DNA of 64,000 nt from an uncultured Acidobacteriota bacterium (GTDB taxonomy: Bacteria > Acidobacteriota > Vicinamibacteria > Vicinamibacterales > UBA2999). Shown in pieces: positions 26,479 through 50,794 of the stretch. The notes under the pieces were generated by a model. The model made no database searches and was not told where the DNA came from. It worked only from the letters and a program-made list of their open reading frames with translations. Where the stretch lies: contig CAVUHC010000006.1 in assembly GCA_963741135.1 (NCBI GenBank), positions 669,760 to 733,759 on the forward strand, written 5' to 3'. The position numbers were made by a program, and so were the translations under genes. Numbering within the stretch: position 1 is the stretch's first letter; each line of letters begins with the position of its first letter.

Positions 26479-26537
26479 CCAACTGCCAACTCCCAAGCGT
26501 TGGGATTTGGGATTTGGGATTTGGGTTTTGGGATTTA
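26479..26537. repeat. Word-palindrome repeat: CCAACT/CCAACTCCCAA facing (TTGGGAT)n tandem heptamers
   Basis: The sequence is CCAACTGCCAACTCCCAAGCG followed by TTGGGAT TTGGGAT TTGGGAT TTGGGTT TTGGGAT. The 3' end TTGGGTTTTGGGATTTACCG matches 44571-44590 at 19 of 20 positions. Confidence 0.75.
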
Positions 26538-36939: not shown

Positions 36940-36950
36940 CCGTTCACACC

Positions 36951-38141
36951 ATGATTCCGGTGGCGCGTCCCTGGATGGACGAGCGCGAGGCCGATGCGGC
37001 GCGCCGCGCGATCCTGTCGGGCTGGGTGACGCAGGGGCCGGAGGTTGCCGCCTTCGAGCGCGAGTTTGCCGCCGCGGTCGGCGCCGATCACGCGTGCGCC
37101 ACGTCCAGCTGCACGACGGCTCTCCATCTGGCGCTGCTGTCGCTGGGCGTGGGCGCCGGCGACGAGGTCATCACCGTCAGTCATTCCTTCATTGCCACCA
37201 CGAACGCGATCCGTTACTGCGGCGCCAGGCCGGTGTTTGTCGACGTCGAGCTGGCGACGTTCAACATCGATCCCGCGCTGGTCGAGGCGGCAATTTCTCC
37301 TCGCACGAAGGCGATCCTGGCCGTGCACCAGCTCGGATTGCCGTGCGATCTTGCGGCGCTGCTTTCGATCGCGAAACGTCGCGGAGTACCGGTTGTCGAG
37401 GACGCCGCCTGCGCGATCGGCAGCGAGATCAACTGGCAGGGCCAGTGGGAGCGGATCGGCAGGCCGCGCGGCGACGTCGCGTGCTTCTCGTTCCATCCTC
37501 GTAAGCTGCTCTCGACCGGCGACGGCGGCATGCTGACGACGAACGACCCCGAGCTCGATCGCACATTCCGGCTCCTGCGGCAGCATGGCATGAGCGTCCC
37601 GGATGCCGTTCGGCACGCGTCGGACCAGGTGATCTTCGAGGGGTATCCGGTGGTCGGCTACAACTACCGGATGACGGACATTCAGGGGGCCATCGGCCGC
37701 GAACAGCTTCAGCGGCTGCCAGCGATCGTGGCCCGGCGACGCGAGCTTGCCGCCCGCTACGAGCAGCGCCTGCAGTCGATCGACGGCCTCATCGTCCCGC
37801 GCGAGCCGCAGTGGGCACGGAGCAACTGGCAGAGTTACGCGGTGCGCGTCGGCGCGTGGATCGACCAGCGCACCGTGATGCAGCGGATGCTCGATGCCGG
37901 CATCGCAACCCGCAGGGGCGTTATGAACGTCCACCGGGAGCCGTCGTACCCACCCGGAACCTGGTATTGTGGCGTATCGGTCGCTGCCTGTGAGTGCGGA
38001 GGTCCAGGCGGCTGTGCCTGCCTGCGCCACGGCGAAGAAGCGCAGGAAACGGCGATCGTCCTGCCGCTTTACCACCAACTGACCGAAGAAGATCAGGACA
38101 GGGTTGTCGCTACGCTCACGTCCGTGATTCAGAGCTCTTGA
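36951..38141 (+). CDS. DegT-family PLP-dependent sugar aminotransferase (ArnB/WecE-like N-terminus) with Cys-rich C-terminal insert; alternative start GTG 36936 (GTGA overlap)
   Basis: RPWMDEREADAARRAILSGWVTQGPEVAAFEREFA, SCTTALHLALLSLGVGAGDEVITVSHSF, VFVDVELATFNID, VVEDAACAIGS, SFHPRKLLSTGDGG and YNYRMTDIQGAIG are present, with the insert WYCGVSVAACECGGPGGCACL. Confidence 0.85.
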   Translation: MIPVARPWMDEREADAARRAILSGWVTQGPEVAAFEREFAAAVGADHACATSSCTTALHLALLSLGVGAGDEVITVSHSFIATTNAIRYCGARPVFVDVELATFNIDPALVEAAISPRTKAILAVHQLGLPCDLAALLSIAKRRGVPVVEDAACAIGSEINWQGQWERIGRPRGDVACFSFHPRKLLSTGDGGMLTTNDPELDRTFRLLRQHGMSVPDAVRHASDQVIFEGYPVVGYNYRMTDIQGAIGREQLQRLPAIVARRRELAARYEQRLQSIDGLIVPREPQWARSNWQSYAVRVGAWIDQRTVMQRMLDAGIATRRGVMNVHREPSYPPGTWYCGVSVAACECGGPGGCACLRHGEEAQETAIVLPLYHQLTEEDQDRVVATLTSVIQSS

Positions 38142-38171
38142 TCCCCGATCGCCGATCGCGGATCCCGAATC
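38140..38171. repeat. GATC-word palindrome between DegT and GT2
   Basis: GATCCCCGATCG / CGATCGCGGATC is an inverted repeat with one mismatch. It uses the same GATCCC-type words as 63658-63687. Confidence 0.55.
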
Positions 38172-38176
38172 AGTTG

Positions 38177-39109
38177 ATGCTCTCCATCCTGACTCCCGCA
38201 TTCAACGAGGCGGCCAATCTGCCGCAGCTGTACGCCCGCCTCGTCGAGACGATGGGCGCGATCGGCGGGGAGTGGGAGTGGATCATCGTCGACGATCACT
38301 CACGCGACGAAACGTTCGCTGTGATCGAAGGCCTCGCGTTGCGCGATGCGCGTGTGCGCGGGTTCAGGCTCGCACGCAACTCGGGCTCGCACGTCGCGAT
38401 TACGTGCGGCCTCCATCACGTGGATGGGGCCGCGGCGGTGATGATGGCGGCGGATCTCCAGGATCCACCGGAGACGCTTACTGCGATGCTCGACAAGTGG
38501 CGCAGGGGGGCGCAGGTGGTGTGGGCAGTCCGGCGCGCACAGCCGGGCCGGAAGTCGCACGCGGGATTCGCTGCGTTCTACTACTGGATCATGAGGCACG
38601 TGGTCGGCATGAAGGAGATGCCGGCGCGAGGCGCCGACTTCTTCCTCATCGATCGCGCGGTGATCGAGGCGTTCCGGCGATTCCCGGAGCGCAACGTCAG
38701 CGTGCTCGCGCTCATCACGTGGCTCGGCTTCCGCCAGGACTCCGTCGAGTACGACAAACAGCCGCGGGCGGCGGGACAGTCGGGATGGACCCTGGCGCGA
38801 AAGATCACGCTTGTCATCGATTCAGTCACGTCGTTCTCCGACTTTCCAATCCGGCTCTGCGCGTACGGCGGCGCCTCGCTCATCGCGATCGCGCTGGTCA
38901 TCCTGATCGTGTCGCTCATCCGTCTGCCGACCCTGCTCGCAGGCCTGCTGTTCGTGCTGTCCGTGCTCATCGGACTGGCAGGACTGCAGCTGCTGGCGCT
39001 GGGGATCGTCGGCGAGTACGTGTGGCGCGCGCTCGATGAGGCACGGCGACGGCCCGCGTATCTGATCGAGGCGGTCGCGGGGCAGCCAGAACCCGCCAAG
39101 CTGCAGTAG
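38177..39109 (+). CDS. GT2 polyprenyl-phosphate glycosyltransferase (ArnC/GtrB/DPM1-like) with two C-terminal TM helices
   Basis: LSILTPAFNEAANLPQL, IIVDDHSRDETF, RLARNSGSHVAITCGL, MAADLQDPPE and GADFFLIDR are present. The hydrophobic C-terminus is IRLCAYGGASLIAIALVILIV..LLAGLLFVLSVLIGLAGLQLLALGIVGEY. Confidence 0.85.
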   Translation: MLSILTPAFNEAANLPQLYARLVETMGAIGGEWEWIIVDDHSRDETFAVIEGLALRDARVRGFRLARNSGSHVAITCGLHHVDGAAAVMMAADLQDPPETLTAMLDKWRRGAQVVWAVRRAQPGRKSHAGFAAFYYWIMRHVVGMKEMPARGADFFLIDRAVIEAFRRFPERNVSVLALITWLGFRQDSVEYDKQPRAAGQSGWTLARKITLVIDSVTSFSDFPIRLCAYGGASLIAIALVILIVSLIRLPTLLAGLLFVLSVLIGLAGLQLLALGIVGEYVWRALDEARRRPAYLIEAVAGQPEPAKLQ

Positions 39110-39233: not shown

Positions 39234-40158
39234 TTGATCGACTGTATCGCCGGGTATCACCTGAATCCATGGACGTGCGGCATCGCGAAGTTCAACGCGA
39301 TTCTCGCGCGGCGTCTCGACGTGCCCGTCGTCGGGATCGGCACGGTGGACCTGAACGGTTACAAGCGGCCGCTGTTGTCGCTGAAGATGTCCGAGTTCTC
39401 GGCGGAACATGCGCTTGCGCTCGATACGTGGATTGATCGCCACGCCGGCGAGTATCGAGCTCTTCCTGCACGCCTTCGACAACAGCGCGCTCGAGAAGCG
39501 GATGCTGGCGGCGGCGGCCAGGGTCTGCTGCGGAAATCGCGAGTTGTCCGAACAGCTGAAGCCGGCGCGTCCCGATATCGTCGAGCTATTCTGCCCGGGA
39601 ACGCTGCTCAATCCAGAGCGATTCGACAAGACCGAGTTGTCGGTGTTCACCTTCGGCATGGCGCACAAGATTCGCGTGCCCCTGTATCGGCGGCTCCGGG
39701 ATCTGCTGGACGCAACGGGCAAGACCTACTCGGTCTACGTCTCGACGGCGCTCCACGAGAACACGAGCTTTGACGATTCGTTCGTGGTCCGGTTCGAGGA
39801 GCTGCAGTCGATTTTCAACCGGCAGGTGTATTTCATGGGCTACTTGTCGGACACGGCGGTCTTCAACCATCTGGTCGATTGCACGTTCGTTGCGGCGTTC
39901 TTCGAGAAGGGGCTGCGCGCGAACAACACGACGGTCAACGCGGCAATGGAGGTTGGGTGCGCCGTCGTGACGAACCTCGACGATCACTCGCCCGAGGGCC
40001 TCGTCCACATGAGGAACGTGATCGACATCAACCGGTGCGACCGCCTTCCTGAGGCGGCGGAGGCGGAAACAATTGGCCGCGCGGCGCGCGACATCGCGCA
40101 CGGGGACTATGGGTGGGACCAGCTCGTCGCGCAGCTGCGTCCCGTCGTTCAGATATGA
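39234..40158 (+). pseudogene. Hypothetical protein, possibly a small GT-B-type glycosyltransferase; one frame change near 39440
   Basis: The N-terminal part is in ORF 39234.. (TTG start, MIDCIAGYHLNPWTCGIAKFN..ALDTWIDRH). The rest is in ORF 39409..40158. The C-terminal block FVAAFFEKGLRANNTTVNAAMEVGCAVVTN loosely resembles the GT4 donor-binding region. The function call is weak. Confidence 0.45.
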
Positions 40159-40211: not shown

Positions 40212-41303
40212 GTGGGGAGACAGGCATTGGCAGGGACTATCACAATCGGCGCCCACGAGATCGGCGACCACACCAAGTGCTATGTGATTGCCGAAATCGG
40301 CCACAACCACCAGGGCAGCCTCGAGAAGGCCCGAGAGCTGTTCCGCGAGGCGAAGCTGGCCGGCGCCCACGCGGTCAAGCTGCAGAAGCGCGATAACCGC
40401 GGCCTCTATACGCGAGCGGCGTACAACAAGCCGTACGACAACGAGAACAGCTTCGGGTCGACCTACGGCGAGCACCGCGAGTTCCTCGAGTTCGGCCACA
40501 AGGAGTACCGCGCGCTGCAGACGTACGCGCGCGAGCTCGATGTCGATTTCTTCTCGACCGCGTTCGATCTCGCCAGCGCCGATTTCCTGCGGCAGCTGGA
40601 CGTCCCCGCCTACAAGATCGCATCCGGAGATCTCAAGAGCACGCCGCTGCTGAAGCATGTCGCGGGGTTTGGCAAGCCGATGGTCATCTCCACCGGCGGC
40701 GCCGTGATCGAGGACGTGCGGCGCGCCTACGACACCATCATGCCAATCAATCCCCAGCTGGCCATCCTGCAGTGCACCGCCGGGTATCCGGCGGCGTTCG
40801 ATGAGCTTGACCTGCGCGTCATCGACACGTACCGCGATCGGTTCCCGGGCGCGGCAATCGGCTTCTCCAGTCACGACAATGGCATCGCGATGCCGGTGGC
40901 GGCCTACATGCTCGGCGCTCGCATTGTGGAGAAACACTTCACGCTGAATCGTGCGATGAAAGGGACCGACCACGCGTTCTCTCTCGAGCCGGTCGGCCTG
41001 CGCAAGATGGTGCGCGACCTCGATCGCACGTACAAGGCGCTTGGCAATGGCATCAAGAAGATTTACGAGAGCGAGAAGGCGCCCATCGTCAAGATGGGCA
41101 AGAGCCTCGTCGTTGCGCGCGATCTTCCGGCCGGCCACGTGATTGGTGCGAACGACATCGTGATGAAATCGCCGGCCGGCGGCATTCCACCGTACGAGTT
41201 GCACAAGGTGATCGGCCGCGTGACGCTCAAGCCGCTGGTGCAGGACGATTTCCTCACCTTCGAGGTTTTGGGCAAGCCCGACGCCGAGCTCGCCCGTTCG
41301 TGA
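40212..41303 (+). CDS. neuB: Second NeuB-family synthase, of the AEIGxNHQG type; to my recollection closer to animal/Bacteroides NulO-9-phosphate (NANS/Kdn-9-P) synthases than to the neuB at 19034
   Basis: CYVIAEIGHNHQGSLEKARELFREAKLAGAHAVKLQKR, GSTYGEHREFLEF, YKIASGDL, GKPMVISTGG, LQCTAGYP, LRVIDTYRDRFP, IGFSSHDNGIAMPVAAYMLGARIVEKHFTL, KGTDHAFSLEP and the SAF-like GKSLVVARDLPAGHVI are present. Confidence 0.85.
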   Translation: MGRQALAGTITIGAHEIGDHTKCYVIAEIGHNHQGSLEKARELFREAKLAGAHAVKLQKRDNRGLYTRAAYNKPYDNENSFGSTYGEHREFLEFGHKEYRALQTYARELDVDFFSTAFDLASADFLRQLDVPAYKIASGDLKSTPLLKHVAGFGKPMVISTGGAVIEDVRRAYDTIMPINPQLAILQCTAGYPAAFDELDLRVIDTYRDRFPGAAIGFSSHDNGIAMPVAAYMLGARIVEKHFTLNRAMKGTDHAFSLEPVGLRKMVRDLDRTYKALGNGIKKIYESEKAPIVKMGKSLVVARDLPAGHVIGANDIVMKSPAGGIPPYELHKVIGRVTLKPLVQDDFLTFEVLGKPDAELARS

Positions 41304-42110
41304 GCGGACGCTTCAGCCTCGATCAACAGATCGCAGTCGTCACCGGCGCGTGCGGCCGCCTCGGACCCATATGGGTCGAGGCGCTGCTGGATGCCGGTGC
41401 GCGCGTCGCGGCGCTTGAACTGCCGGGCGCCCCGGTCTCGGCTGCGTTCCGCGCGCTCGCGGAAGGGTCGCCTCTCACGCTCGAGCGGTTCGATTGCGAC
41501 ATCACCAGGCGCGAATCGATTGAAAGTCGCGGCGGCGGCGGTGGCAAGCCGCATGGGCGCCGCCAGCGTGCTCGTCAACAACGCCGGCGTCGATCAGCCG
41601 CCCGACGCGGGCGGCAATCGATCGACCATCGACGATCTTCCAATCGAACAGTTCCGGAAGATGATTGAGGTCAACCTCCTCGGCACCTTCCAGGTGACGC
41701 AGGTGTTTGGCGGACAGATGGCGGCGCGCGGACACGGCTCGATCATCAACATCGGCTCGCTGTACGCATCGGTGTCGCCCGATCAGCGGTTCTACGATCA
41801 CCTGCCCGGGGATGTGCCGTTTCTCAAGTCGCCGGCCTATGGCGCATCGAAAGCGGCGGTGGTCAATATGACGAAGTACTTTTCGACGCTCTGGGGCCGG
41901 CAGGGGATTCGCGTGAACACGCTGTCTCCCGGCGGCGTCCTGGGCGGCCAGGACGACCAGTTCAAGTCGAAGTACGGCGCGCGCGTACCGCTCGGGCGGA
42001 TGGCGCAGATGGACGATCTGAAAGGGCCCCTGGTGTTCCTCGCCTCGCCTGCATCGTCGTACGTGACGGGCCACGAGCTTCGCGTCGATGGAGGTTTTAC
42101 GGCGTGGTAA
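41300..42110 (+). pseudogene. Short-chain dehydrogenase/reductase (classical SDR); one frame change near 41510-41530
   Basis: GTG 41300 overlaps TGA 41301-41303. IAVVTGACGRLG (TGxxxGxG-like) is in ORF 41300... LVNNAGV, IINIGSLY, YGASKAAV (YxxxK), RVNTLSPG and GHELRVDGG are in ORF 41391..42110. Confidence 0.8.
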
Positions 42111-43624
42111 AGGCTGTCAACGCCCAGCTTCCAACTCCCAGGTCCAGGGCCGCCGATCTCTCGGTGATTCCATCGGTGATTCTGAACCAGCTCGGCACCG
42201 ACCACATGCCGTCCGTGGACGGACGCACGTTCCGCAAGATGGATCCCGCGACCGGCAGAGCGCTGTGCGAGGTTGCGCGATCCACGGCCGCGGACGTGGA
42301 GCTCGCGGTCACGAAGGCGAAGGCGGCGCAGCCGGCGTGGGCCGCGCTGACGGTGGTCAAGCGCGGAGATATCCTGCGGCAGCTTGCGCTGCTGATGCGC
42401 GAGCACCGCGACGCGATCGCGGCGCTTGTCGCAAGGGAAACCGGCAAGTCCAGGAAAGACGCGCTCGGTGAAACCGACGCCGCGATCGAGATGGGCTTCT
42501 TTGTCGCCGGCGAAGGGCGTCGCTTCTACGGCCAGACGACAACCAGCGCCGTGCCGAACAAGTCGGCAATGGTCGTTCGCCAGCCGCTTGGCGTTGCCGG
42601 TCTCATCATTGCGGCGAACACGCCGATCGCCAACGTTGCATGGAAAGCGTTCCCTGCGTTGCTGTGCGGCAACGCGGCGATTCTGAAGGCGGCCGAGGAT
42701 ACGCCACTCTCCGCGTGGGCGTTTGGGATCCTCGCGCGCGAGGCCGGAGTCCCCGATGGCGTCTACACGACGCTTCACGGCCTCGGTGACGAGGCTGGCG
42801 CGCCGCTCGTCCAGCATCCGGACGTGTCGGTCATCAGCTTCACCGGCTCGTGCGAGGTCGGCCGCTGGATCGCCGAGACAGCGGGCCGTCGGCTTGCCAA
42901 GGTCTGCCTCGAGCTCGGCGGCAAGAATCCGTTGATTGTCTGTGATGATGCGGATTTGCAGAACGCGGTGACGTGGACGGTGGGGTCGGCGTTCAGCAAC
43001 GCCGGCCAGCGGTGCGCGGCCGGAAGCCGCGTCATCGTGTTCGATGCCGTGTACGACCGGTTCAAGTCGATGCTCGTCGATGCGACCATGAAGCTGAGGG
43101 TGGGGACCGGCGACACCGATGACTACGGACCGGTCATCAACCAAGAGCAGATGACCAACATGCTCGCGGCCGTGGAGCGCGCGAAGCAGTCGGGGGCGGC
43201 AGTGCTCACCGGCGGCGAGCGGTTGACGGGCTCGAGCTATGGGGACGGCTACTTCGTCGCGCCGACAATCGTGGAGCATGTCGGGCCGAACGATGAAATC
43301 ACGCGCAGCGAGCTGTTCGGTCCGATCACCTGTCTCTACCGGGTCGAGGATTTCGAGGAAGCGATTGCGCTGGCCAACGACTCACCCTTCGGCCTGACGG
43401 CGTCGATTCACACGCAGAACATCAACCGGGCCATGACGTTCATCGGCCGGATCCAGTCGGGCGTGGCCGTCGTGAATGGCGGCACCTACGGCAGCGAACC
43501 GCACCTGCCGTTCGGAGGCCTTCGTCAATCGGGCAACGGCTGGCGCGAGGCGGGGACGCAGGCGCTCGACGTGTACTCGGATCTGAAGACCGTTTACATC
43601 AATCACAACCCGGACAAGGTGTAA
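42104..43624 (+). CDS. NAD(P)-dependent aldehyde dehydrogenase (alternative start ATG 42206)
   Basis: FRKMDPATG, GVAGLIIAANTP, FTGSCEVGRWI, ELGGKNPLIV, NAGQRCAAGSRVIV, ELFGPI and PFGGLRQSGNG are present. The first ~34 codons contain a CCAACTCCCAG repeat word and may not be coding. Confidence 0.85.
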   Translation: MVKAVNAQLPTPRSRAADLSVIPSVILNQLGTDHMPSVDGRTFRKMDPATGRALCEVARSTAADVELAVTKAKAAQPAWAALTVVKRGDILRQLALLMREHRDAIAALVARETGKSRKDALGETDAAIEMGFFVAGEGRRFYGQTTTSAVPNKSAMVVRQPLGVAGLIIAANTPIANVAWKAFPALLCGNAAILKAAEDTPLSAWAFGILAREAGVPDGVYTTLHGLGDEAGAPLVQHPDVSVISFTGSCEVGRWIAETAGRRLAKVCLELGGKNPLIVCDDADLQNAVTWTVGSAFSNAGQRCAAGSRVIVFDAVYDRFKSMLVDATMKLRVGTGDTDDYGPVINQEQMTNMLAAVERAKQSGAAVLTGGERLTGSSYGDGYFVAPTIVEHVGPNDEITRSELFGPITCLYRVEDFEEAIALANDSPFGLTASIHTQNINRAMTFIGRIQSGVAVVNGGTYGSEPHLPFGGLRQSGNGWREAGTQALDVYSDLKTVYINHNPDKV

Positions 43625-43625
43625 G

Positions 43626-43706
43626 GGGGTCGGGAGTCATTACAAGAATCGAAATCGAGATCAGTTGCGCGACCCGATTTCGATTCTTGTAATGACTCCC
43701 GACCCC
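43626..43706. repeat. Perfect 32-bp inverted repeat with 17-nt spacer
   Basis: GGGGTCGGGAGTCATTACAAGAATCGAAATCG (43626-43657) and its exact reverse complement (43675-43706). It starts 2 nt after the ALDH stop and has no downstream T-tract. Confidence 0.9.
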
Positions 43707-43729
43707 GATCAACAACGCAGAAGGCAGAA

Positions 43730-44504
43730 GTGCGAACTCCAGGATCTCTGAGTGCCGTTGCTCTGATTCCCGCCCGCCAAGGCTCGAAGCGTGTTCCAGG
43801 CAAGAACGTCCGTCTGCTGCAGGGCCATCCGTTGCTGGCGTACACGATCGCGCCAGCGCTCGAAAGCGGCGTGTTCGATTCCGTAATCGTGTCGACCGAC
43901 TCCGAGGAGACCGCGGCGATCGCGCGGCACTATGGCGCCGAGGTGCCGTTTCTGAGGCCGAAGGAGTTTGCGGGCGACAGGTCGCCGGACATCGAGTGGG
44001 TCGAGTACACGCTTGCGAGAGCTGACGCGCCGAGGCCGGAGCTGGGACGGTTTCTCGCTGCTCCGACCGACGAGTCCGTTTCGCACCGCGGACACGATCC
44101 GCCGGGCCTGGGAGCGTTTCACGGCGCAGGACGGAGCGGACTCGCTGCGCGCCGTCGAGAAATGCGGACAGCATCCCGCCAAGATGTGGGTCCTGCAGGG
44201 TGACCGGATGGTTCCATTGCTGCAGCCGTCGGATCCGGCCGCGCCGCCGTGGCACAGCATGCCGTACCAGGCGCTCCCACCGATTTACGTGCAGAATGCG
44301 TCACTGGAGATCGCGTGGACGCGCGTCGTCTCGGAGAAGCGGACGATCGCCGGCGACGTGCTGGTGCCGTTCATCACGCAAGGCTACGAGGGGTTCGATA
44401 TCAACGATCCGCACGACTGGATGATTGCCGAGCGCCTGCTCGCGGATGGGACGGTCACGTTGCCGCGCGTCGCGCAGGAACCTTACGGAGCCGTGCGGAT
44501 TTGA
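43730..44504 (+). pseudogene. NulO/ulosonic-acid cytidylyltransferase (CTP_transf_3-like); one frame change near 44010-44040
   Basis: AVALIPARQGSKRVPGKNV, VSTDSEE and EVPFLRP are in ORF 43730... SLLRPTSPFR, MPYQALPPIYVQNASLEI and GFDINDPHDWMIAE are in ORF 43968..44504. Confidence 0.78.
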
Positions 44505-44590
44505 AAATCCCGATTCCCAAATCCCAACCCCCAAATCCCAACGTGATTGGTTTTTGGATTTGGGATTTGGGTTTTGGGTGTTGGGATTTA
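44505..44590. repeat. Long word-palindrome: AATCCCA-type words facing TTGGGAT-type words
   Basis: The left arm is AAATCCCGATTCCCAAATCCCAACCCCCAAATCCCAACG (44505-44543). The right arm is TGGTTTTTGGATTTGGGATTTGGGTTTTGGGTGTTGGGATTT (44548-44589). The element ends in TTGGGATTTACCG as at 26528-26540. Confidence 0.8.
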
Positions 44591-44594
44591 CCGA

Positions 44595-46551
44595 ATGGGT
44601 GATCTACAGACGGACCAAGGCGAAAGCCTAGACCTTCGCTACGTGCCCGTGTCGGAGTTCACACGGGTCGTGGGCGCGAAGGCGGATGCTGCCGCGCGCG
44701 CGGATGCGTTTGCGGCGCTTGCGCGGATCAACGCGCTGTACATGATCGCGGGCGCGTGGTCGGGCCACATCGGGACCAGTTTCAGCTCAATCGAGATCAT
44801 GAGCTGGCTGTTCCTGAACGAGCTGCGCGACCTCGGAAAGGGTCCCGACGACTGCGATATCTTCTTTTCATCGAAGGGCCACGACGCGCCGGCCCTCTAC
44901 TCGGTCCTGATCGGCCTCGGCCTGCTTCCTGCCGACAAGCTCCATCAACTTGCGGCGCCTTGGCGGCCTCCCCGGACACCCGCACGTCGAGACGCCGTAC
45001 ATCCAGGCGAACACCGGATCGCTCGGCATGGGCATCTCGAAGGCGAAGGGGATGGCGCTGGCGAACCGGCTGGCGGGCAGGCCGCGCCGCATCTTCGTGC
45101 TGACGGGAGATGGCGAGCTGCAGGAAGGGCAGTTCTGGGAGTCGCTCGGCTCTGCGGCGAACATGGGCCTCGGTGAGATCGTCGCAATCATCGATCACAA
45201 CAAGATCCAGTCGGACACGTGGGTCAGGAAGATCAGTGACCTCGGCGACATCGAAGCCAAGCTGAGCGCCTTCGGCTGGCACGTGAGTCGCTGCGACGGC
45301 CACGACGCGCGCGCGCTCGAGCGCACGTTCCGCGCGCTGGACGCCGTCGTGGATCGCCCGAAAGTCATCATCGCGGACACCGTCAAAGGCCGTGGTGTCT
45401 CGTTCATGGAAGGTCCCGCCGCGCTGAAGGCGAGCGATCTGTACCTGTTCCACTCAGGCGCGCCGCCCGAACAGCAATACCTCGATGGCCTCCAGCAATT
45501 GCTGACGACCGCCGAGTGCGCGTGTGCTGGTCTCGGGCTCGGTTCGCTGAAGACAGAAACGCGGACGCGCAATCCGCGCCGCGAGCCGCGTGACACGCAG
45601 AACCTCGTGGCGGCGTACGGGAAGGCGCTCGTGCAGCAGGCCGATCGCCATCCCCGGCTGGTCGTGCTCGACGCGGACCTCATCAAGGATTGCGGTCTGC
45701 TCGAATTCGCCGCGAAATACCCGCAGCGCTTCATCGAATGCGGCATCGCGGAACAGGACATGGCGTCGATGGCGTGCGGCATGGCGCGCCGCGGTGTGCT
45801 TCCAGTGGCGCATTCGTTCGCGTGCTTCCTCTCTACGCGGCCGAACGAGCAGATCTACAACCAGTGCAGCGAGGGGTCGAAGGCGATCTACGTCGGGTCG
45901 CTTGCAGGCGTCCTGCCTGGCGGCCCCGGCCACTCGCACCAGTCTGTCCGCGACATCAGCGCGCTGAGCGCTGTGCCCAACCTGCTGATGGCTGAACCCG
46001 CGGCGGAAGCCGAGGTGGAGGCGCTGTTCGATTACCTCGTGAACGACGCGACGGAGAGCGCCTACCTGCGACTCGTGTCGGTGAAATGGCCGCTGCCGTT
46101 CGCGTACCCGTCGAGCGTTCGCGTCGAGCCCGGCAAGGGATGGATCGTCCGCCCGGGAAACGACGCCGTGATCGTCGGGTACGGACCGTGGATGTTGTCC
46201 AACGCGTGGCATGCGGCCGAAGAGATTGAGCAGACGACCGGCTCTCGGCTGCGCATCGTCAACCTGCCGTGGCTCAATCGCGTGGATGCCGCGTGGCTGA
46301 AGGAAACGATCGGCGCGTGCCGCGCGATCATCACGCTCGACAACCACTACCTCCACGGTGGGCAGGGGGAGATGCTTGGCGCGGCGATCGCGGAGCTCGG
46401 CCTCGACCCGGCGGCGCGCGTCTCGCGCATCGGCGTCACCGAGCTGCCCGAGTGCGGCACCAACGACGAAGTGCTCGCCTATCACGGGCTCGACATCGCC
46501 GGGCTCGTCCGGCAGTTCAGCGCCGCCATGCGGCAGCACACTTTTCAATGA
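44595..46551 (+). pseudogene. Fused transketolase-family protein (TPP-binding N-terminal part plus pyrimidine-binding/C-terminal parts); one frame change near 44940-44955
   Basis: SGHIGTSFSSIEIMSWLF and FSSKGHDAPALY are in ORF 44547... GHPHVETPYIQANTGSLGMGISKAKGMA, VLTGDGELQEGQFWES, IIDHNKIQSD, FIECGIAEQDMASMACGMA and GPGHSHQSVRDIS are in ORF 44950..46551. Confidence 0.8.
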
Positions 46552-47273
46552 CTATTCTGTTTTGGGATATCGACGGGACACTGCTCACGACCGGCAAGGC
46601 CGGTGTGCCCGCCTGGGAAGCGGCCGTTCGCGAGACAACGGGAAAAGAATTCCAGTTGTCGTCGATTCGTGTGCCCGGGCTGACGGATTACCAGATCGCG
46701 GCGCGAACGTTCGAGTTGCTGGGCGTTCCCACGACCGGCGACGTGGTCAAACGGATGGTGACACGCTATGAGGAGCTGCTGCCCTCGACGCTCCGCTTGA
46801 AACAAGGGCGCGTGCTGCCCAATGTGCGCGAGATTCTCGAGGTGCTGCGCGCGAAGACGGGCGTCCGTTCATACTTGCTGACCGGCAACACGCGCGCGGG
46901 CGCGGGGGCAAAGCTGACACACTACGACCTGTTGAAATTCTTTCCCGACGGCGGGTTCGCCGAGGACCAGGGAAACCGGTCGACGATCGCGAAACGCGCG
47001 TTGGAACTGGCGCGCCGCAGCGGTCCGGTGACCGCCGATTGCACCTTCGTGATTGGCGATACGCCGCACGACATCGAGTGCGCGGCGCCGATCAACGCCC
47101 GCACGATCGCGGTTGCCACGGGCGGCTTTACTGTCGAGGAGTTGTCGGCATATCACCCTTGGCGCATATTCGCTGAGCTGCCGCCACCGTCTGAGTTCCT
47201 GCGGCTCATCGAAGAGCCCGCTGAAGCCGGCCCCCGTGTTCCGTCGATGCCCGCCGATCCCGTCCGCGCATGA
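46548..47273 (+). CDS. HAD-superfamily hydrolase (phosphatase, DxDGT motif)
   Basis: ATG 46548 overlaps TGA 46549-46551. ILFWDIDGTLL (motif I), LLTGNT (motif II-like) and VIGDTPHDIECA (motif IV-like) are present. Confidence 0.8.
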   Translation: MTILFWDIDGTLLTTGKAGVPAWEAAVRETTGKEFQLSSIRVPGLTDYQIAARTFELLGVPTTGDVVKRMVTRYEELLPSTLRLKQGRVLPNVREILEVLRAKTGVRSYLLTGNTRAGAGAKLTHYDLLKFFPDGGFAEDQGNRSTIAKRALELARRSGPVTADCTFVIGDTPHDIECAAPINARTIAVATGGFTVEELSAYHPWRIFAELPPPSEFLRLIEEPAEAGPRVPSMPADPVRA

Positions 47274-49006
47274 GGCACGTCATCCGGCACTTCCCGACGC
47301 TCTGGCGGGCGAGCCGCCTCGCGCGACGGTGGTATTACGCCCGGCGGAACGCCTATCCGGACTGGCGGCAGGCATTGGCTGCGGATCGGGGTTTGTGGGA
47401 CTCGGCCCGCAACGCGGCACAGGGCGGGCCACGGGTGCTGATGGCGACCGCGATTGGGTCATATGCGCATGCCGTGACGCTCGAGAGTGCGCTTGCGGCT
47501 GCGTTGACGTTCCGTGGCGCGGAAGTGCACGCGCTGCTGTGCGACGGCACCATGACCGCCTGCGCCGAATGCGAGGCGTCGATGTATCCGAATCTTCGCC
47601 ATTTCGTTGATCACGGCCCTTCGCGCGATCTGTGCCGCGACTGCCGGTGGCCCGCCGAGCGTGTCTATCAGCAGCTCGGGCTGAAGGTGCACCTCATGGG
47701 CGACTGGTTGACGCCCGCCGATCGTGCCGAGGCAAGCCGCATCGCATCGTCACTGCCGCTGGATCAGATCGAAGACTTCGTCCTGGATGGACTGGCGATC
47801 GGCGAGCATGCGCACGCCGGTGCACTACGTTTTTTTGCGACCGGATCATTGGACCATGAGCCGCACGCCGAACCGATTCTGCGCCGGTACCTGGAATCGG
47901 CGTTGCTGACGGCGTCAGCCACGCGTCGCCTGATGCGCGAGGTGCAGTTCTCGTCGGCGGTCTTCACGCATGGCATCTACGTGCCGTGGGGAATTGTCGG
48001 CGAGGTTGCGCGCCACGAGGGCGTGCGCGTGTCCAACTGGAACGTTGCCTACCGCAAGCGGCGGTTCATCTTCAGCCACGGCGACACCTACCATCACACG
48101 CTCCTGAGCGAGCCGCGCGAACACTGGGAACATCTCGACCTCTCGGCGTCGCAGGAGCGCGAGCTGATGCAGTACCTCGCGAGCCGCCGCGAGGGGATGT
48201 TCGACTGGATCGTCTTCCATCGCCCTACGAAGCAGGACCCGCAGGAGATCGCCAGGAAGATCGGCCTCGACCCGTCGAAGCCCGCCATCGGCCTGCTCAC
48301 CAACGTTGCGTGGGACGCGCAGCTTCACTATCCGGCCAACGCGTTTCCCAACATGCTCGAGTGGCTCGTGCAGACGTGCGAGTACTTCGCGACGCGGCCG
48401 GATCTGCAGCTGCTGATCCGGGTCCATCCCGCGGAAATCAGCGGCTTTCCGCCGTCGCGCCAGCCGATCCTCGCCGAGCTCCGCAAGCGCCTCCCGCGCC
48501 TCGCGTCCAACATCATCGTCGTCCCGCCCGAGAGCGGCCTGGGCACGTATGCGCTGATGTCGCTCTGCAACTCTGCCATCATCTACGGCACCAAGATGGG
48601 CGTAGAGCTGACGAGCGTCGGGCTGCCGGTGATCGTCGCCGGCGAAGCGTGGATCCGCAACAAGGGGATCACGCTGGATGCGACCACGCCGGACGAGTAT
48701 TTCCGGCTGCTCTCGCAGCTGCCGTTCGCGGAACGCCTTTCACCGCCGCAGCTCTCGCGGGCGCGGCGCTATGCGTATCACTTCTTCTTCAATCGCATGA
48801 TCCCGCTGCCGTTCATCGAGCCCAAGGCGGCCTATCCGATCTACCGGCTGAAGCTCGAGCGGCTGCAGCAGTTGCTGCCTGGCGCCTCACAGGGCCTGGA
48901 TACGATCTGCGACGGCATCCTTGCACAAGGGCCCTTCGTTCTGCGCGACAAGGGCAGCAGGACCCCGGCCATCATCGGGGCGCCAGAACCGTCCGCGGTT
49001 CAGTGA
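47270..49006 (+). CDS. Capsule-polysaccharide-biosynthesis-like protein (KpsC/KpsS-type HP-motif GT-B, tentative) with Cys cluster
   Basis: ATG 47270 overlaps TGA 47271-47273. LLIRVHPAE and AIIYGTKMGVELTSVGLPVIVAG follow the HP and donor-loop pattern. A Cys cluster (CDGTMTACAECE..CRDCRWP) is present. The family call is from memory of the pattern only. Confidence 0.55.
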   Translation: MRHVIRHFPTLWRASRLARRWYYARRNAYPDWRQALAADRGLWDSARNAAQGGPRVLMATAIGSYAHAVTLESALAAALTFRGAEVHALLCDGTMTACAECEASMYPNLRHFVDHGPSRDLCRDCRWPAERVYQQLGLKVHLMGDWLTPADRAEASRIASSLPLDQIEDFVLDGLAIGEHAHAGALRFFATGSLDHEPHAEPILRRYLESALLTASATRRLMREVQFSSAVFTHGIYVPWGIVGEVARHEGVRVSNWNVAYRKRRFIFSHGDTYHHTLLSEPREHWEHLDLSASQERELMQYLASRREGMFDWIVFHRPTKQDPQEIARKIGLDPSKPAIGLLTNVAWDAQLHYPANAFPNMLEWLVQTCEYFATRPDLQLLIRVHPAEISGFPPSRQPILAELRKRLPRLASNIIVVPPESGLGTYALMSLCNSAIIYGTKMGVELTSVGLPVIVAGEAWIRNKGITLDATTPDEYFRLLSQLPFAERLSPPQLSRARRYAYHFFFNRMIPLPFIEPKAAYPIYRLKLERLQQLLPGASQGLDTICDGILAQGPFVLRDKGSRTPAIIGAPEPSAVQ

Positions 49007-50794
49007 TTTACTCTTCCCTCGCATTTCTGATCTCGATGCTGGCGTGCGTGGCGCTGTGCGCGCTCGTCCGCCGGACGGCACCGGCGATCGGCGCGGTCGT
49101 GCCGCCTCGCGCCGATCGCTGGCACAGCGAGCCGACGCCGACGATGGGGGGTGTCGCGATCGCGGTTGCGAGCGGTGCTGGGGTTCGGAGTCATCGTCGG
49201 CCAGGCGCACGCCATGATTCCTCCCGCCGCGTGGCTGTCCGATTCCGCTCGCCGCGATCGCGATGTTCGTCGTCGGCGTCCTCGACGACCGGTTCCAGCT
49301 GTCGCCGCTCGCCAAGCTCGTCGCGTCGCTCATCATCGGCGCCTTCCTCGTGTTTTCGCTGACGCAGAAGTCCTGGCACGGCACTGCCGTGGACGCACAC
49401 GCTGGTCGCGACGATCTGGTTTGCCGGCGTCTGCCACGCCTTCAACCTGCTCGACAACATGGATGGTCTCGCCGCCGGCGTGGCACTGATCGCGGCGGGA
49501 TTCATGGCATGGCTGCTGGCCCAGTGGCTCGGCTCGCCTATCGCGCTGCTGCTCGTCGCCCTGTGCGGGGCGCTGCTCGGGTTTCTGTACTGGAACCGTC
49601 CGCCCGCGCGGCTCTTCATGGGCGACTGTGGGAGCCTCTTCATCGGGGCCGTGCTTGCCGGCGCATCGCTGATGCCGGTGCTGCAGGAGCGCACGGTGTT
49701 TCCGTGGACGTCAGTGCTGGTGGTGCTGATTCTCGTGGCGCCGCTGTTCGATACCGGTTTCGTGCTCGTCCTTCGGCGGTTCGCGGGCCGAAGCGCCACG
49801 CGAGGCGGCACGGACCACGTGTCGCATCGTCTCGTGTCGCTTGGCTTCTCCGAGCGGAGCGCCGTGCGGATCCTGTATCTCCTCGGCATCATCGGTGGAT
49901 GCGTCGCGTGGGCGCTGGTCAACGGCGGCATCGAGCAGATGTTCCCGCTGGCGGCGCTTCTGGCTGTTGTGGTCACGCTCATCGGCATCTACCTCGCGCG
50001 TGTACCCGCGTACAACGCGCAGGATTTCGCCGCGCTCGAGAGCTCGTCGTTCGCTCCGCTGCTCAAAGACCTGACGTTCCGCTGGCACGCCGGCGAGGTG
50101 ATGCTCGATCTGGTGCTGATCGCGGCGTGCTACTACTTTGCGTACCGCCTGCGGTTCGAGGGCGAGAGCCTCGATCACTTCCTGCCGTACTTCACGGCGT
50201 CGCTGCCGGTGGTGCTCGGCTGCAAGCTGGCTTCGCTGTACGGCTCCGGGCTGTATCAGCGGTCGTGGGAGACCTTCGGTCTCCGCGATGTCAGCGTCGT
50301 CCTGCGCGGTGTGCTGATGGGATCCCTGCTTGTCGGTGCTGGCGGCAGCGTATTTCTACCGGCTCGAGGGGTTCTCACGCGTGGTGTTCATGCTGGATGC
50401 GCTGCTGCTTACCGTGGCGATCATCGGCACGCGGGCATCCTTCCGGAGCATGAGCCTGATTGCCGCGTCCCGCAGCAAGCGGAGCCGCCGCGTGCTCGTG
50501 TACGGCGCCGGCGCGTACGGGCAGATGATCGTGCGCGAGATGCGCGCCAACCCTCAGTGGGATATGAACCCGGTGGCGTTCATCGACGATGATCCGATGA
50601 AAGCGCACCGCTGGATCCTGGGTGTGCCGGTCCGTGGAGCGCTTGAGCAGCTGGACGCCACGATGCGTCGCTACTCGGTGGACGAAGTGATCCTCAGCAG
50701 CCCGCTGATCAACGGTCAGATCGAACACCGGATTCGCAAGGTGTGCACGGATCTCGATCGTCCGGTTCGGCGGCTGCATATGAGCATCCAGTAA
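49003..50794 (+). pseudogene. WecA/WbpL-like polyprenyl-phosphate HexNAc-1-phosphate transferase fused to a TM plus Rossmann-like module of the CapD/WbpM/WbaP N-terminal type; at least 3 frame changes
   Basis: GTG 49003 overlaps TGA 49004-49006. HSEPTPTMGGVAI (ORF 47986 frame), VGVLDDRFQLSPLAKL (ORF 49263), NLLDNMDGLAAG.., MGDCGSLFIGAVLA and GGTDHVSHRL (ORF 49459) are present. Then come hydrophobic segments and RRVLVYGAGAYGQMIVREM..PVAFIDDDPMK..ILGVPVRG (ORF 50330..50794). Confidence 0.72.

What the first reader, a model, noticed from the sequence alone, without database searches (positions are those of the whole stretch)
40212..49006. Candidate novel ulosonic-acid pathway: NANS-like NeuB, SDR, aldehyde dehydrogenase, cytidylyltransferase, fused transketolase, HAD phosphatase, KpsC/S-like transferase
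Seven mostly tightly packed genes are bracketed by repeat elements; 4-nt overlaps join neuB2/SDR, transketolase/HAD and HAD/Kps-like, SDR/ALDH overlap by 7 nt, and repeat-bearing gaps flank the cytidylyltransferase. The synthase (40212-41303) has the AEIGHNHQG..TYGEH..LQCT..YP..SSHDNG..KGTDHAFSLEP pattern. I associate this pattern with the phosphate-dependent NANS/Kdn-9-P synthase type, and a HAD phosphatase is present, which fits a 9-phosphate route. A transketolase-family enzyme, an SDR and an aldehyde dehydrogenase are not part of any sialic, legionaminic, pseudaminic, Kdn or Kdo pathway I know. They could build and oxidise an unusual aldose-phosphate precursor, or oxidise the product to a dicarboxylic ulosonate. 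A dedicated cytidylyltransferase and an HP-motif capsule-type transferase would activate and install the product.
Basis: inference. Interest (0 to 1): 0.85.

Follow-up and report, generated by a model that had tools for sequence, protein, structure and literature searches.

The report
Conserved pathway for a modified sialic-type sugar
This soil acidobacterium carries a gene set, shared by bacteria of at least six phyla, that probably makes and installs an undescribed acidic surface sugar related to sialic acid, using an unusual transketolase-like enzyme; three of the seven genes are frame-broken in this copy.

Summary
All seven genes are at the stated coordinates with the stated overlaps. These are most likely assembly errors, because at least 15 such insertions occur between 27.7 and 50.4 kb and none is found in four relatives.

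The module is not a chance neighbourhood. Of 57 species-representative loci with enough flank, 40 have all partners in the same order. It also occurs in Nitrospirota, Chloroflexota (cultured Kallotenue papyrolyticum), Actinomycetota, Desulfuromusa, Lentisphaerales and, in part, the cyanobacterium Moorena.

The synthase groups with animal NANS rather than with ordinary NeuB. The phosphatase is swapped for a KdsC-type enzyme in other phyla, which supports a 9-phosphate route. The 578-aa protein is a distant KpsC-like transferase.

The transketolase-like enzyme keeps its cofactor and catalytic residues but has lost every phosphate-binding residue. It is therefore unlikely to build a sugar-phosphate precursor.

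My preferred mechanism is inferred, not shown. The SDR oxidises the penultimate hydroxyl. The TK-like enzyme then removes the terminal two carbons, and the ALDH makes a second carboxylate. The product would be a CMP-activated ulosaric acid.

I found no published description in three searches of the held library.

The parts
39234..40158 (+). 307-aa protein with no Pfam family, always directly upstream of the synthase in Vicinamibacterales. Frame-broken in the window at about 39454.
   Evidence: (64-99% identity, about 1 kb upstream, in nearly all Vicinamibacterales loci)
40227..41303 (+). NANS-like ulosonate-phosphate synthase (NeuB TIM barrel + SAF domain). The longest ORF starts at GTG 40212; relatives start at the position of 40227.
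41300..42110 (+). Classical NAD-type short-chain dehydrogenase. It is the invariant partner of the synthase. Frame-broken by an extra base at 41527.
42104..43624 (+). Aldehyde dehydrogenase, intact. The start is either GTG 42104 or ATG at about 42206.
43626..43706 (.). Perfect 32-bp hairpin between the ALDH and the cytidylyltransferase. It occurs once in the window and does not align to the near relative L002.
43730..44504 (+). CMP-ulosonate-type cytidylyltransferase (CTP_transf_3). Frame-broken by an extra base at 44016.
44505..44589 (.). Imperfect palindrome of AAATCCC/TTGGGAT heptamers. A similar palindrome sits at the same place in L002.
44595..46551 (+). Fused transketolase-like ThDP enzyme (N, Pyr and C domains) lacking the phosphate-binding site. 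Frame-broken by an extra base at 44952.
46548..47273 (+). HAD_2-type phosphatase (DxDxT motif). In other phyla it is replaced by a KdsC-type phosphatase placed between the synthase and the SDR.
47270..49006 (+). 578-aa distant KpsC/KpsS-like glycosyltransferase with a GT-B-type fold, an invariant HP motif (H386-P387) and four invariant Cys residues.
49036..50794 (+). Initiating polyprenyl-phosphate sugar-phosphate transferase (Glycos_transf_4 + CoA_binding_3). It follows the module in Vicinamibacterales. Frame-broken at 49170, 49237, 49364 and 50328.

Best explanation
The region encodes a conserved module that makes, activates and installs a modified ulosonic acid.

Well supported by comparative evidence:
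- A NANS-like synthase condenses PEP with a phosphorylated aldose. Mannose-6-phosphate is the likeliest substrate, because no ManNAc-supplying gene belongs to the module. That would give a Kdn-9-phosphate-type product.
- A HAD phosphatase removes the terminal phosphate.
- A CTP_transf_3 enzyme makes the CMP-sugar.
- A distant KpsC-like transferase adds it to a glycan built on an undecaprenyl-type carrier.

Inferred steps, which are my proposal for the three 'extra' enzymes acting as one tailoring sequence on the dephosphorylated sugar:
1. The NAD-type SDR oxidises the penultimate hydroxyl of the side chain to a ketone, leaving a HOCH2-CO- end.
2. The transketolase-like ThDP enzyme uses that end as a ketol donor and removes the last two carbons as ThDP-bound glycolaldehyde, leaving an aldehyde.
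3. The aldehyde dehydrogenase oxidises the aldehyde to a second carboxylate.

From Kdn this would give a seven-carbon 3-deoxy-hept-2-ulosaric acid (C7H10O8). This is an isomer of the plant and rhizobial sugar Dha, not necessarily Dha itself.

In this window the SDR, cytidylyltransferase and transketolase-like genes are frame-broken. I read this as sequence error rather than gene decay.
For: Module reality:
- 316 relatives of the synthase were found in species-representative genomes.
- Of 57 loci with at least 8 kb downstream, 57 have the SDR next door, 47 have SDR+ALDH+cytidylyltransferase+TK-like, and 40 have all six partners in the same order.
- The set recurs in Nitrospirota (L065, all seven), Actinomycetes (L078), Pyrinomonadaceae (L069), Desulfuromusa, Lentisphaerales, Nitrospirales and cultured Kallotenue papyrolyticum (L085).

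9-phosphate route:
- The synthase scores 271 bits with one gap against mammalian NANS, versus 134-162 bits against bacterial NeuB, SpsE and NeuB1.
- It is sister to NANS in an NJ tree.
- It shares the loop motif PY..S[FW]G.TYGEH..LEF and the E134-to-D change. PMC8208679 ties the alpha2-beta2 loop to use of a phosphorylated substrate and reports the E134D change in archaeal and eukaryotic synthases.
- The phosphatase shows non-orthologous replacement. Where the 241-aa HAD_2 is absent, a roughly 175-aa KdsC/YrbI-type enzyme sits between the synthase and the SDR. It matches PDB KdsC entries and chains 3e81/3e8m, which I recall to be the Bacteroides Kdn-9-P phosphatase, at 2.8e-20.
- No UDP-GlcNAc 2-epimerase belongs to the module. 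The window's other, classical NulO set at 19-23 kb does have one.

Tailoring steps:
- The SDR's closest NCBIfam and PDB relatives are mannonate oxidoreductase, gluconate 5-dehydrogenase, KduD, and sorbitol, galactitol and polyol dehydrogenases. From my own knowledge of those enzymes, they oxidise the hydroxyl next to a terminal CH2OH.
- All 13 family members examined carry an acidic residue at the end of beta-2, which marks an NAD-type and hence oxidative enzyme.
- The TK-like enzyme keeps H37, H77, H110, K244, H258, D155, N185 and E366 (human numbering), and has His at position 428 as in microbial transketolases.
- In all 11 cluster members examined from several phyla, R318 becomes V/I, S345 becomes D, H416 becomes L/Y, R474 becomes S/I and D424 becomes P. 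The same signature is found in about 50 representative clusters down to about 34% identity. Weaker hits show the canonical pattern.
- The enzyme therefore works on something that is not a canonical sugar phosphate. This fits action after the phosphatase.
- The ALDH's best NCBIfam matches are alpha-ketoglutarate-semialdehyde and 2,5-dioxovalerate dehydrogenases, which act on the omega-aldehyde of a 2-keto acid. The matches are below cut-off.

Transferase:
- PF05159 matches reach 23-28 bits (threshold 20) in two homologues.
- The HP motif is invariant.
- The AF2 model has pLDDT 89, and KpsC gives the best TM-scores, 0.52-0.55.
Against: - No enzyme activity or product is shown. All assignments of SDR and ALDH specificity rest on sub-threshold family resemblance at 30-40% identity, and the ALDH's PDB neighbours are generic.
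- TK-like and ALDH are separable in some lineages. Moorena has synthase-SDR-(PhyH-like)-ALDH with no TK-like gene within 10 kb. L064 also has the ALDH without a TK-like gene in the locus. Caldilineales L084 has the TK-like gene without an ALDH.
- Six loci have only synthase+SDR in another context, so the SDR's reaction does not require the other two enzymes.
- The Asp that enforces donor stereochemistry in true transketolases is replaced. The stereochemical fit of 8-keto-Kdn therefore proves nothing.
- The fate of the two-carbon unit is unexplained, because the usual sugar-phosphate acceptor site is gone.
- The conserved Asp at position 345 is not what one would expect next to a carboxylate.
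- The aldose substrate, and hence the chain length of the product, is unknown.
- In this window three of the enzymes are frame-broken.
Confidence: 0.4

Rival explanations
1. Terminal oxidation without chain shortening. The SDR oxidises the terminal primary alcohol of the dephosphorylated nonulosonic acid to an aldehyde and the ALDH makes a nine-carbon ulosaric acid. The TK-like enzyme does a separate, accessory job.
For: - SDR and ALDH are translationally coupled here (7-nt or 4-nt overlaps).
- They occur together without the TK-like gene in Moorena and in L064.
- From my own knowledge, Kdo8N biosynthesis offers a precedent for oxidising the terminal carbon of an ulosonic acid.
Against: - It leaves the most unusual and most consistently co-inherited enzyme unexplained. 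47 of 57 loci have SDR+ALDH+cytidylyltransferase+TK-like.
- The SDR's nearest characterised relatives oxidise secondary, penultimate hydroxyls rather than primary alcohols.
Confidence: 0.2
2. Precursor building. The transketolase, SDR and ALDH assemble and oxidise an unusual aldose phosphate that the synthase then condenses with PEP.
For: - From my own knowledge, lincosamide octose biosynthesis uses a transaldolase, a phosphatase and a nucleotidyltransferase to build a rare sugar phosphate.
- The TK-like and HAD genes overlap by 4 nt.
Against: - The TK-like family has lost all four phosphate-binding residues and the Asp that reads the acceptor's 2-hydroxyl. It is badly suited to sugar phosphates, yet a NANS-like synthase needs a phosphorylated aldose.
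- An ALDH would destroy the aldehyde the synthase needs, and the other end of the sugar is blocked by phosphate.
- Transketolase products are ketoses, and no isomerase belongs to the module.
Confidence: 0.1
3. Branched-chain sugar. The SDR makes a keto group and the ThDP enzyme adds a one- or two-carbon unit to it, as E1-like enzymes do for two-carbon branches in antibiotic deoxysugars. The ALDH then oxidises an aldehyde branch to a C-carboxyl group.
For: - From my own knowledge, ThDP enzymes of this superfamily add branches to keto sugars (avilamycin AviB1/B2, YerE).
- The altered substrate channel fits a bulky non-phosphorylated acceptor.
Against: - The His residues that hold the hydroxyl of the dihydroxyethyl intermediate in real transketolases are all kept. 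This points to ketol chemistry rather than acetyl or formyl transfer.
- Addition of a ketol unit gives no aldehyde for the ALDH.
Confidence: 0.07
4. The module is decaying in this strain. The frameshifts in the SDR, cytidylyltransferase, TK-like, 307-aa and initiating-transferase genes are real, and the pathway is non-functional here. This concerns the state of this copy, not what the module does, so it can hold alongside any of the explanations above.
For: Eight one-base insertions between 39.4 and 50.4 kb break five genes.
Against: - Every event is a +1 insertion and none is a deletion.
- They are unique to the window when compared with four relatives of 77-95% identity.
- There are at least 15 between 27.7 and 50.4 kb, including a run of seven in 1.4 kb.
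- Downstream reading frames stay open and 95-98% identical to relatives.
- This is the signature of insertion-prone sequence data, not of mutation under relaxed selection.
Confidence: 0.15
5. Unrelated co-located pathways. The TK, SDR and ALDH belong to ordinary carbohydrate metabolism and merely sit beside a Kdn-type pathway.
For: All three families are common in central and catabolic metabolism.
Against: - The same order and strand are kept in many Vicinamibacterales species and in at least six other lineages, amid otherwise different flanking genes.
- The genes overlap.
- The TK-like enzyme is not a housekeeping transketolase.
Confidence: 0.03

Closest known systems
Kdn pathway of Bacteroides thetaiotaomicron (Kdn-9-P synthase, KdsC-type Kdn-9-P phosphatase, CMP-Kdn synthetase) and the animal NANS/NANP/CMAS route
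   Same: It has a phosphate-dependent NeuB-family synthase, a dedicated HAD phosphatase (KdsC-type in several phyla) and a CTP_transf_3 cytidylyltransferase. No epimerase is needed if mannose-6-phosphate is the substrate.
   Different: Three further enzymes (NAD-type SDR, ALDH, transketolase-like) are inherited with it, and the SDR is fused into the operon directly after the synthase. The synthase is only 36-39% identical to NANS. The Bacteroides synthase could not be compared here.
Transketolase (EC 2.2.1.1), closest solved structure human TKT (4KXU)
   Same: It has the three-domain fused architecture, the ThDP and metal motif, the activating Glu, and the His residues that hold the ketol unit.
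   Different: All phosphate ligands and the stereo-determining Asp are replaced (R318V/I, S345D, H416L/Y, R474S/I, D424P). It scores below the NCBIfam cut-off (390 vs 488). It is encoded in a surface-polysaccharide operon.
KpsC/KpsS beta-Kdo transferases (Pfam PF05159, GT107)
   Same: It has a GT-B-like fold with KpsC as the best structural match, an invariant HP motif, and use of a CMP-ulosonic acid donor is implied by the adjacent cytidylyltransferase.
   Different: It is a single 578-aa protein with a large N-terminal extension and a four-Cys motif. Sequence similarity is marginal (12.8 bits for the window protein). The catalytic Asp was not mapped.
Kdo8N biosynthesis in Shewanella (KdnB oxidises C8 of Kdo, KdnA transaminates); from my own knowledge
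   Same: The side-chain end of an ulosonic acid is tailored after its synthesis, beginning with an oxidation.
   Different: That pathway uses a metal-dependent alcohol dehydrogenase and an aminotransferase. It removes no carbon and makes no second carboxylate.
Dha (3-deoxy-D-lyxo-hept-2-ulosaric acid) of plant RG-II, prasinophyte walls and Rhizobiaceae LPS cores
   Same: It is a seven-carbon 3-deoxy-2-ulosaric acid, the same class and formula as the product I propose. The activated form of Dha was still unidentified in the 2012 review (PMC3355719).
   Different: By my own stereochemical reasoning, a product derived from Kdn would be the L-arabino isomer, not D-lyxo. No link to Dha-containing organisms was tested.

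Membership tests
NANS-type (phosphate-dependent) ulosonate-9-phosphate synthase | NeuB TIM-barrel domain plus C-terminal SAF/antifreeze-like domain | tested here: met
   PF03102 at 255.6 bits and PF08666 at 40.7 bits
NANS-type (phosphate-dependent) ulosonate-9-phosphate synthase | Closer to animal NANS than to bacterial NeuB, PseI or SpsE | tested here: met
   271 bits, 38% identity and one gap against P0243. This compares with 162 bits for the window's NeuB1 and 134-161 bits for PDB NeuB, PseI and SpsE. The NJ tree places the family sister to NANS.
NANS-type (phosphate-dependent) ulosonate-9-phosphate synthase | NANS-type alpha2-beta2 loop and Glu-to-Asp change at the position of N. meningitidis E134 | tested here: met
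   The motif PY..S[FW]G.TYGEH..LEF is shared only by the cluster family and NANS. ASGD is seen in the alignment. The meaning of the loop and of E134D is taken from PMC8208679.
NANS-type (phosphate-dependent) ulosonate-9-phosphate synthase | Dedicated phosphatase for the product | tested here: met
   HAD_2 at 46548-47273. A KdsC-type phosphatase takes its place in L059, L063, L069, L072, L084 and L085.
NANS-type (phosphate-dependent) ulosonate-9-phosphate synthase | Activity with ManNAc-6-P or Man-6-P and not with the free sugar | not testable with these tools
   Needs an enzyme assay
Ordinary bacterial N-acetylneuraminate synthase (TIGR03569) or pseudaminate synthase (TIGR03586) | Score above the NCBIfam equivalog cut-off | tested here: not met
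   289.3 against a cut-off of 399.65, and 229.5 against 340.25
Transketolase EC 2.2.1.1 | Three domains, GDG..N ThDP/metal motif, activating Glu, catalytic His residues | tested here: met
   H37, H77, H110, H258, D155, N185 and E366 are kept
Transketolase EC 2.2.1.1 | Phosphate-binding residues (human R318, S345, H416, R474) and stereo-determining Asp424 | tested here: not met
   Replaced by V/I, D, L/Y, S/I and P in all 11 cluster members and in about 50 representatives. The residue list comes from PMC8016368. The roles of the residues come from my own knowledge of the yeast and human enzymes.
Transketolase EC 2.2.1.1 | Score above the NCBIfam equivalog cut-off | tested here: not met
   Best model NF004559 scores 389.6 against a cut-off of 488
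KpsC/KpsS beta-Kdo transferase family (PF05159) | Pfam Capsule_synth match above the gathering score | tested here: inconclusive
   The window protein scores 12.8 bits against a threshold of 20. Homologues in L065 score 23.3 and 28.5 bits on the same region.
KpsC/KpsS beta-Kdo transferase family (PF05159) | Conserved HP motif | tested here: met
   H386 and P387 are invariant in 50 sequences
KpsC/KpsS beta-Kdo transferase family (PF05159) | KpsC-like fold | tested here: met
   The AF2 model has pLDDT 89. KpsC entries give the highest TM-scores, 0.52-0.55, with rmsd 5.7-7.7 A. Similarity is moderate.
KpsC/KpsS beta-Kdo transferase family (PF05159) | Catalytic Asp nucleophile (D160 in E. coli KpsC) | not tested
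   No residue-level structural alignment was available
CMP-ulosonate synthetase (CTP_transf_3) | Pfam PF02348 match; equivalog assignment | tested here: inconclusive
   PF02348 scores 75.9 bits on the N-terminal fragment. The repaired protein scores 137.9 on PseF against a cut-off of 205.7. It is a family member, but its substrate is not assigned.

The most novel reading that the evidence does not exclude
A transketolase-like ThDP enzyme that has given up sugar phosphates cuts the two-carbon end off a keto-oxidised sialic-acid-type sugar. Together with an SDR and an ALDH it converts a Kdn-type nonulosonic acid into a CMP-activated seven-carbon ulosaric acid. Soil and aquatic bacteria of many phyla would then put this sugar into their surface glycans. 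It would be the first enzymatic side-chain shortening of a sialic-type sugar. It would also be the first biosynthetic route to a Dha-class diacid, whose activated form was still unidentified in the 2012 review I read.
Probability: 0.3. Interest if true: 0.85.

Novelty: new variant of a known kind. Interest (0 to 1): 0.66.

Why it matters
- Sialic-acid-type sugars shape how bacterial surfaces are recognised, and their known biosynthetic routes are few. This is a widely inherited, uncharacterised extension of the phosphate-dependent route.
- The synthase family alone has more than 300 relatives among species-representative genomes. These include abundant soil Vicinamibacterales and at least one cultured organism, Kallotenue papyrolyticum, that carries the whole set.
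- The module contains a coherent transketolase-like subfamily of about 50 clusters at 50% identity whose substrate site has been rebuilt. A new reaction type is therefore likely whatever the exact product turns out to be.
- If the product is a heptulosaric acid, the module gives a concrete, testable enzymology for a class of sugar (Dha) whose activated form was still unidentified in the 2012 review.
- The finding is also a caution. This particular sequence carries many single-base insertions, so gene calls from it will be fragmented.

Tried and rejected
- **Exact look-up of the window's synthase:** not on record.
- **Literature searches:** searches on transketolase + nonulosonic + ALDH + cytidylyltransferase, on heptulosaric acid, and on NeuB + transketolase + Kdn found no description of this module.
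- **Sequence search of the 578-aa protein against the PDB:** nothing found. The fold search was needed instead.
- **Promoter and terminator scan of 39-51 kb:** no more hits than in shuffles.
- **Programmed +1 frameshifting:** two sites read CTTGCG, but I rejected the idea. The sites differ from one another, relatives lack the extra base, and similar insertions litter neighbouring genes.
- **Dha itself as the product:** rejected on stereochemistry. Kdn-derived chain shortening gives the L-arabino isomer, not D-lyxo, and Kdo would lose two carbons, not one.
- **Stereochemical fit of 8-keto-Kdn as evidence:** read from C9, it has the 3S,4R arrangement that true transketolases need. I withdrew this argument because the Asp that enforces that preference is replaced.
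- **ALDH specificity from PDB neighbours:** only generic class 1/2 and betaine-aldehyde enzymes came up.
- **Bacteroides Kdn-9-P synthase:** could not be obtained for the tree.

Full report
**What is in the sequence.** On the + strand between 39.2 and 50.8 kb lies a run of surface-polysaccharide genes:
- a 307-aa protein with no family (39234-40158)
- a NeuB+SAF synthase (40212/40227-41303)
- a classical SDR (41300-42110)
- an aldehyde dehydrogenase (42104-43624)
- a CTP_transf_3 cytidylyltransferase (43730-44504)
- a fused three-domain transketolase-like protein (44595-46551)
- a HAD_2 phosphatase (46548-47273)
- a 578-aa protein with no Pfam match at default thresholds (47270-49006)
- a Glycos_transf_4/CoA_binding_3 initiating transferase (49036-50794)

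Two strong hairpins flank the cytidylyltransferase. One is a perfect 32-bp stem at 43626-43706. The other is a palindrome of AAATCCC heptamers at 44505-44589. The heptamer also occurs at 26500-26536 and 63843-63872. Nothing comparable brackets the seven genes as a set.

**Frameshifts.** The SDR, the cytidylyltransferase and the transketolase-like gene are each split between two reading frames. The contigs L001/L002 are 94-95% identical to the window, and alignment to them shows one extra base in the window at 41527, 44016 and 44952. It also shows extra bases at 39455, 49170, 49237, 49364 and 50328. The same extra bases are absent from L005, L006 and L003 as well, and a further seven window-only insertions lie between 27.76 and 29.11 kb. 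In the relatives the genes are intact at 269, 255 and 651-653 aa. All events are +1 insertions. None sits in a long homopolymer. Downstream frames stay open and 95-98% identical to relatives. I read this as insertion-prone sequence data and give about 0.15 to real decay. Active-site motifs are otherwise intact.

**Source and conservation.** Named relatives of the synthase are Vicinamibacterales (Acidobacteriota). A scan of one genome per species found 316 relatives, and the best 80 loci were fetched. I searched them with the module's proteins. Of the 57 loci with at least 8 kb downstream of the synthase:
- all 57 have the SDR immediately after the synthase
- 47 have SDR+ALDH+cytidylyltransferase+TK-like
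- 40 have all six partners in the window's order

Outside Vicinamibacterales, the set or most of it is present in these lineages:
- Nitrospirota (L065, all seven)
- an actinomycete MAG (L078)
- Pyrinomonadaceae (L069)
- Desulfuromusa (L070)
- Lentisphaerales (L059)
- Nitrospirales (L081)
- a deltaproteobacterial MAG (L082)
- Caldilineales (L084)

The cultured Chloroflexota species Kallotenue papyrolyticum has methyltransferase-synthase-KdsC-like-SDR-ALDH-cytidylyltransferase-TK-like-571-aa-Wzy (L085). Flanking genes differ between lineages. This is a functional module, not a chance neighbourhood.

**The synthase is NANS-like.** It falls below the NCBIfam cut-offs for NeuB and PseI. Against one of them (P0243) the window protein gives 38% identity over 336 residues with a single gap, at 271 bits. 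By comparison it gives 162 bits against the window's own classical NeuB at 19055-20101, and 134-161 bits against solved NeuB, PseI and SpsE. In an NJ tree the cluster synthases from several phyla form the sister group of animal NANS. Only these two groups share the segment PY..S[FW]G.TYGEH..LEF. This region is the alpha2-beta2 loop, which PMC8208679 says favours the phosphorylated substrate. They also share the Glu-to-Asp change that the same paper reports for archaeal and eukaryotic synthases. The Bacteroides Kdn-9-P synthase could not be included.

**The phosphatase.** Where the 241-aa HAD_2 enzyme is missing, a roughly 175-aa protein sits between synthase and SDR. This holds in L059, L063, L069, L072, L084 and L085. 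It is a KdsC/YrbI-type HAD. It matches solved KdsC enzymes, and it matches chains 3e81/3e8m, which I recall to be the Bacteroides Kdn-9-P phosphatase, at 2.8e-20. Two unrelated phosphatase types filling one slot is good evidence that the synthase product carries a phosphate.

No UDP-GlcNAc 2-epimerase or other ManNAc-supplying gene belongs to the module in any lineage. The window's other NulO set at 19-23 kb does have an Epimerase_2 gene next to NeuB1 and a second cytidylyltransferase. A central metabolite such as mannose-6-phosphate is therefore the likeliest substrate. This step is inferred.

**The 578-aa protein.** Its family is large, with more than 4000 hits, and some members are named 'capsule biosynthesis protein'. 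Homologues give PF05159 (KpsC/KpsS) matches of 13-28 bits on the same C-terminal region, two of them above threshold. H386-P387 and four cysteines are invariant in 50 sequences. The AlphaFold model has pLDDT 89. It is GT-B-like, and the KpsC beta-Kdo transferases give the best TM-scores, 0.52-0.55. It is a distant relative, not a demonstrated member.

**The transketolase-like enzyme.** Its nearest solved structure is human transketolase. I aligned it with eleven cluster members from several phyla. The cofactor and catalytic residues are kept: H37, H77, H110, K244, H258, D155, N185 and E366. Position 428 is His, as in microbial transketolases. The substrate-binding residues are replaced: R318 by V/I, S345 by D, H416 by L/Y, R474 by S/I and D424 by P. 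The residue set is the active-site list of PMC8016368. That the four bind the substrate phosphate and that the Asp reads the acceptor's 2-hydroxyl is established knowledge for the yeast and human enzymes.

A search of 1.84 billion representatives shows the same signature in about 50 of 63 full-length hits, down to about 34% identity. The canonical R-S-H-D-H/Q-R pattern returns among weaker hits. This is a distinct subfamily that should still form the ThDP-bound ketol intermediate but cannot hold a sugar phosphate in the usual way.

**SDR and ALDH.** The SDR's best NCBIfam and PDB relatives are mannonate oxidoreductase, gluconate 5-dehydrogenase, KduD, and sorbitol, galactitol and polyol dehydrogenases, all below cut-off. 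From my own knowledge of those enzymes, they oxidise the hydroxyl next to a terminal CH2OH. All 13 family members examined have an acidic residue at the end of beta-2, the mark of NAD-type and hence oxidative SDRs, and keep Ser and YxxxK. The ALDH's best NCBIfam hits are alpha-ketoglutarate-semialdehyde and 2,5-dioxovalerate dehydrogenases, but its PDB neighbours are generic.

**Proposed mechanism (inferred).**
1. Synthase and phosphatase give a free Kdn-type acid.
2. The SDR makes the penultimate ketone. This creates a HOCH2-CO-CHOH- end, which is exactly the motif a transketolase uses as a donor.
3. The TK-like enzyme removes the two terminal carbons.
4. The ALDH turns the new aldehyde into a carboxylate.
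5. The cytidylyltransferase and the KpsC-like enzyme activate and transfer the diacid.

This uses every gene. It explains why the phosphate must go first, and it fits the lost phosphate site.

Weak points:
- TK-like and ALDH are separable in some lineages. Moorena and L064 have the ALDH without it, and L084 has the TK-like gene without an ALDH.
- Six loci have only synthase+SDR, in a different context.
- The two-carbon acceptor is unknown.
- The conserved Asp at position 345 is unexplained.
- The substrate chain length is not established.

I give the full statement 0.4. The general claim, that this is a conserved 9-phosphate-route CMP-ulosonate pathway with three-enzyme tailoring, I put at about 0.85.

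**Comparison with what is known.** The module works like the Bacteroides and animal Kdn/Neu5Ac-9-phosphate route with added tailoring. The proposed product would belong to the class of Dha, whose activated form was still unidentified in the 2012 review (PMC3355719) and which has been reported in Rhizobiaceae LPS cores (reference list of PMC5713287). By my own stereochemical reasoning, Kdn would give the L-arabino isomer rather than D-lyxo. Three literature searches found no description of this gene set. I class it as a new variant of a known kind, containing what is probably a new reaction type.

Noticed in passing
window 27762, 28268, 28680, 28917, 29019, ~29045, 29114, 39454, 41527, 44016, 44952, 49170, 49237, 49364, 50328: These are single-base insertions unique to the window when compared with four relatives. 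No unique single-base deletions were seen in coding DNA. An epimerase at 25344-26383 also changes frame near 26225. The window looks like insertion-prone, unpolished sequence, so gene calls from it will be fragmented.
   Followed up: partly
window 19055-22944: This is a second, classical nonulosonic-acid set. It comprises NeuB1 (32% identical to the NANS-like synthase), a UDP-GlcNAc 2-epimerase domain (in ORF 18976-21255), a methyltransferase (21286-22233) and a second CTP_transf_3 cytidylyltransferase (22252-22944). A further weak cytidylyltransferase-like match lies at 9178-9891.
   Followed up: partly
window 26500-26536, 44505-44589, 63843-63872: Arrays of the heptamer AAATCCC/TTGGGAT are present. 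The middle one is arranged as an inverted pair that folds into a long hairpin. A similar palindrome sits at the same intergenic position in L002.
   Followed up: partly
window 43626-43706: A perfect 32-bp inverted repeat (-62.9 kcal/mol) lies between the ALDH and the cytidylyltransferase. It occurs once in the window and does not align to L002. It may be a small inserted element.
   Followed up: partly
L003, L004, L007 at 11901-12812: In some Vicinamibacterales a formyltransferase (Formyl_trans_N + C) is inserted between the SDR and the ALDH. It may serve the neighbouring epimerase/DegT/GT2 trio rather than the ulosonate module.
   Followed up: no
L060, L075, L076, L080, L083; Moorena L057, L062, L068: A paralogous synthase+SDR pair (62-65% identical) sits in a different context. 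Its neighbours are one or two weakly PhyH-like proteins, PF05159-like proteins, large membrane proteins, and a fusion of a TagD-type cytidylyltransferase with a methyltransferase. No TK-like gene or phosphatase was found in the fetched flanks. Moorena has synthase-SDR-PhyH-like-ALDH with the 578-aa homologue 5 kb upstream.
   Followed up: partly
window 39234-40158: This 307-aa protein has no Pfam or NCBIfam match. It is conserved directly upstream of the synthase in nearly all Vicinamibacterales loci, with one 38% match in an Elusimicrobia contig. Its function is unknown.
   Followed up: partly
window 47270-49006 (residues C91, C98, C122, C125): Four invariant cysteines in the N-terminal part of the KpsC-like protein suggest a zinc-binding module. 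I do not know of such a module in KpsC itself.
   Followed up: no
window 35872-39109: An NAD-dependent epimerase/dehydratase, a DegT aminotransferase and a GT2 with C-terminal membrane helices lie just upstream. The arrangement recalls the Arn (4-amino-arabinose) lipid-carrier pathway.
   Followed up: no
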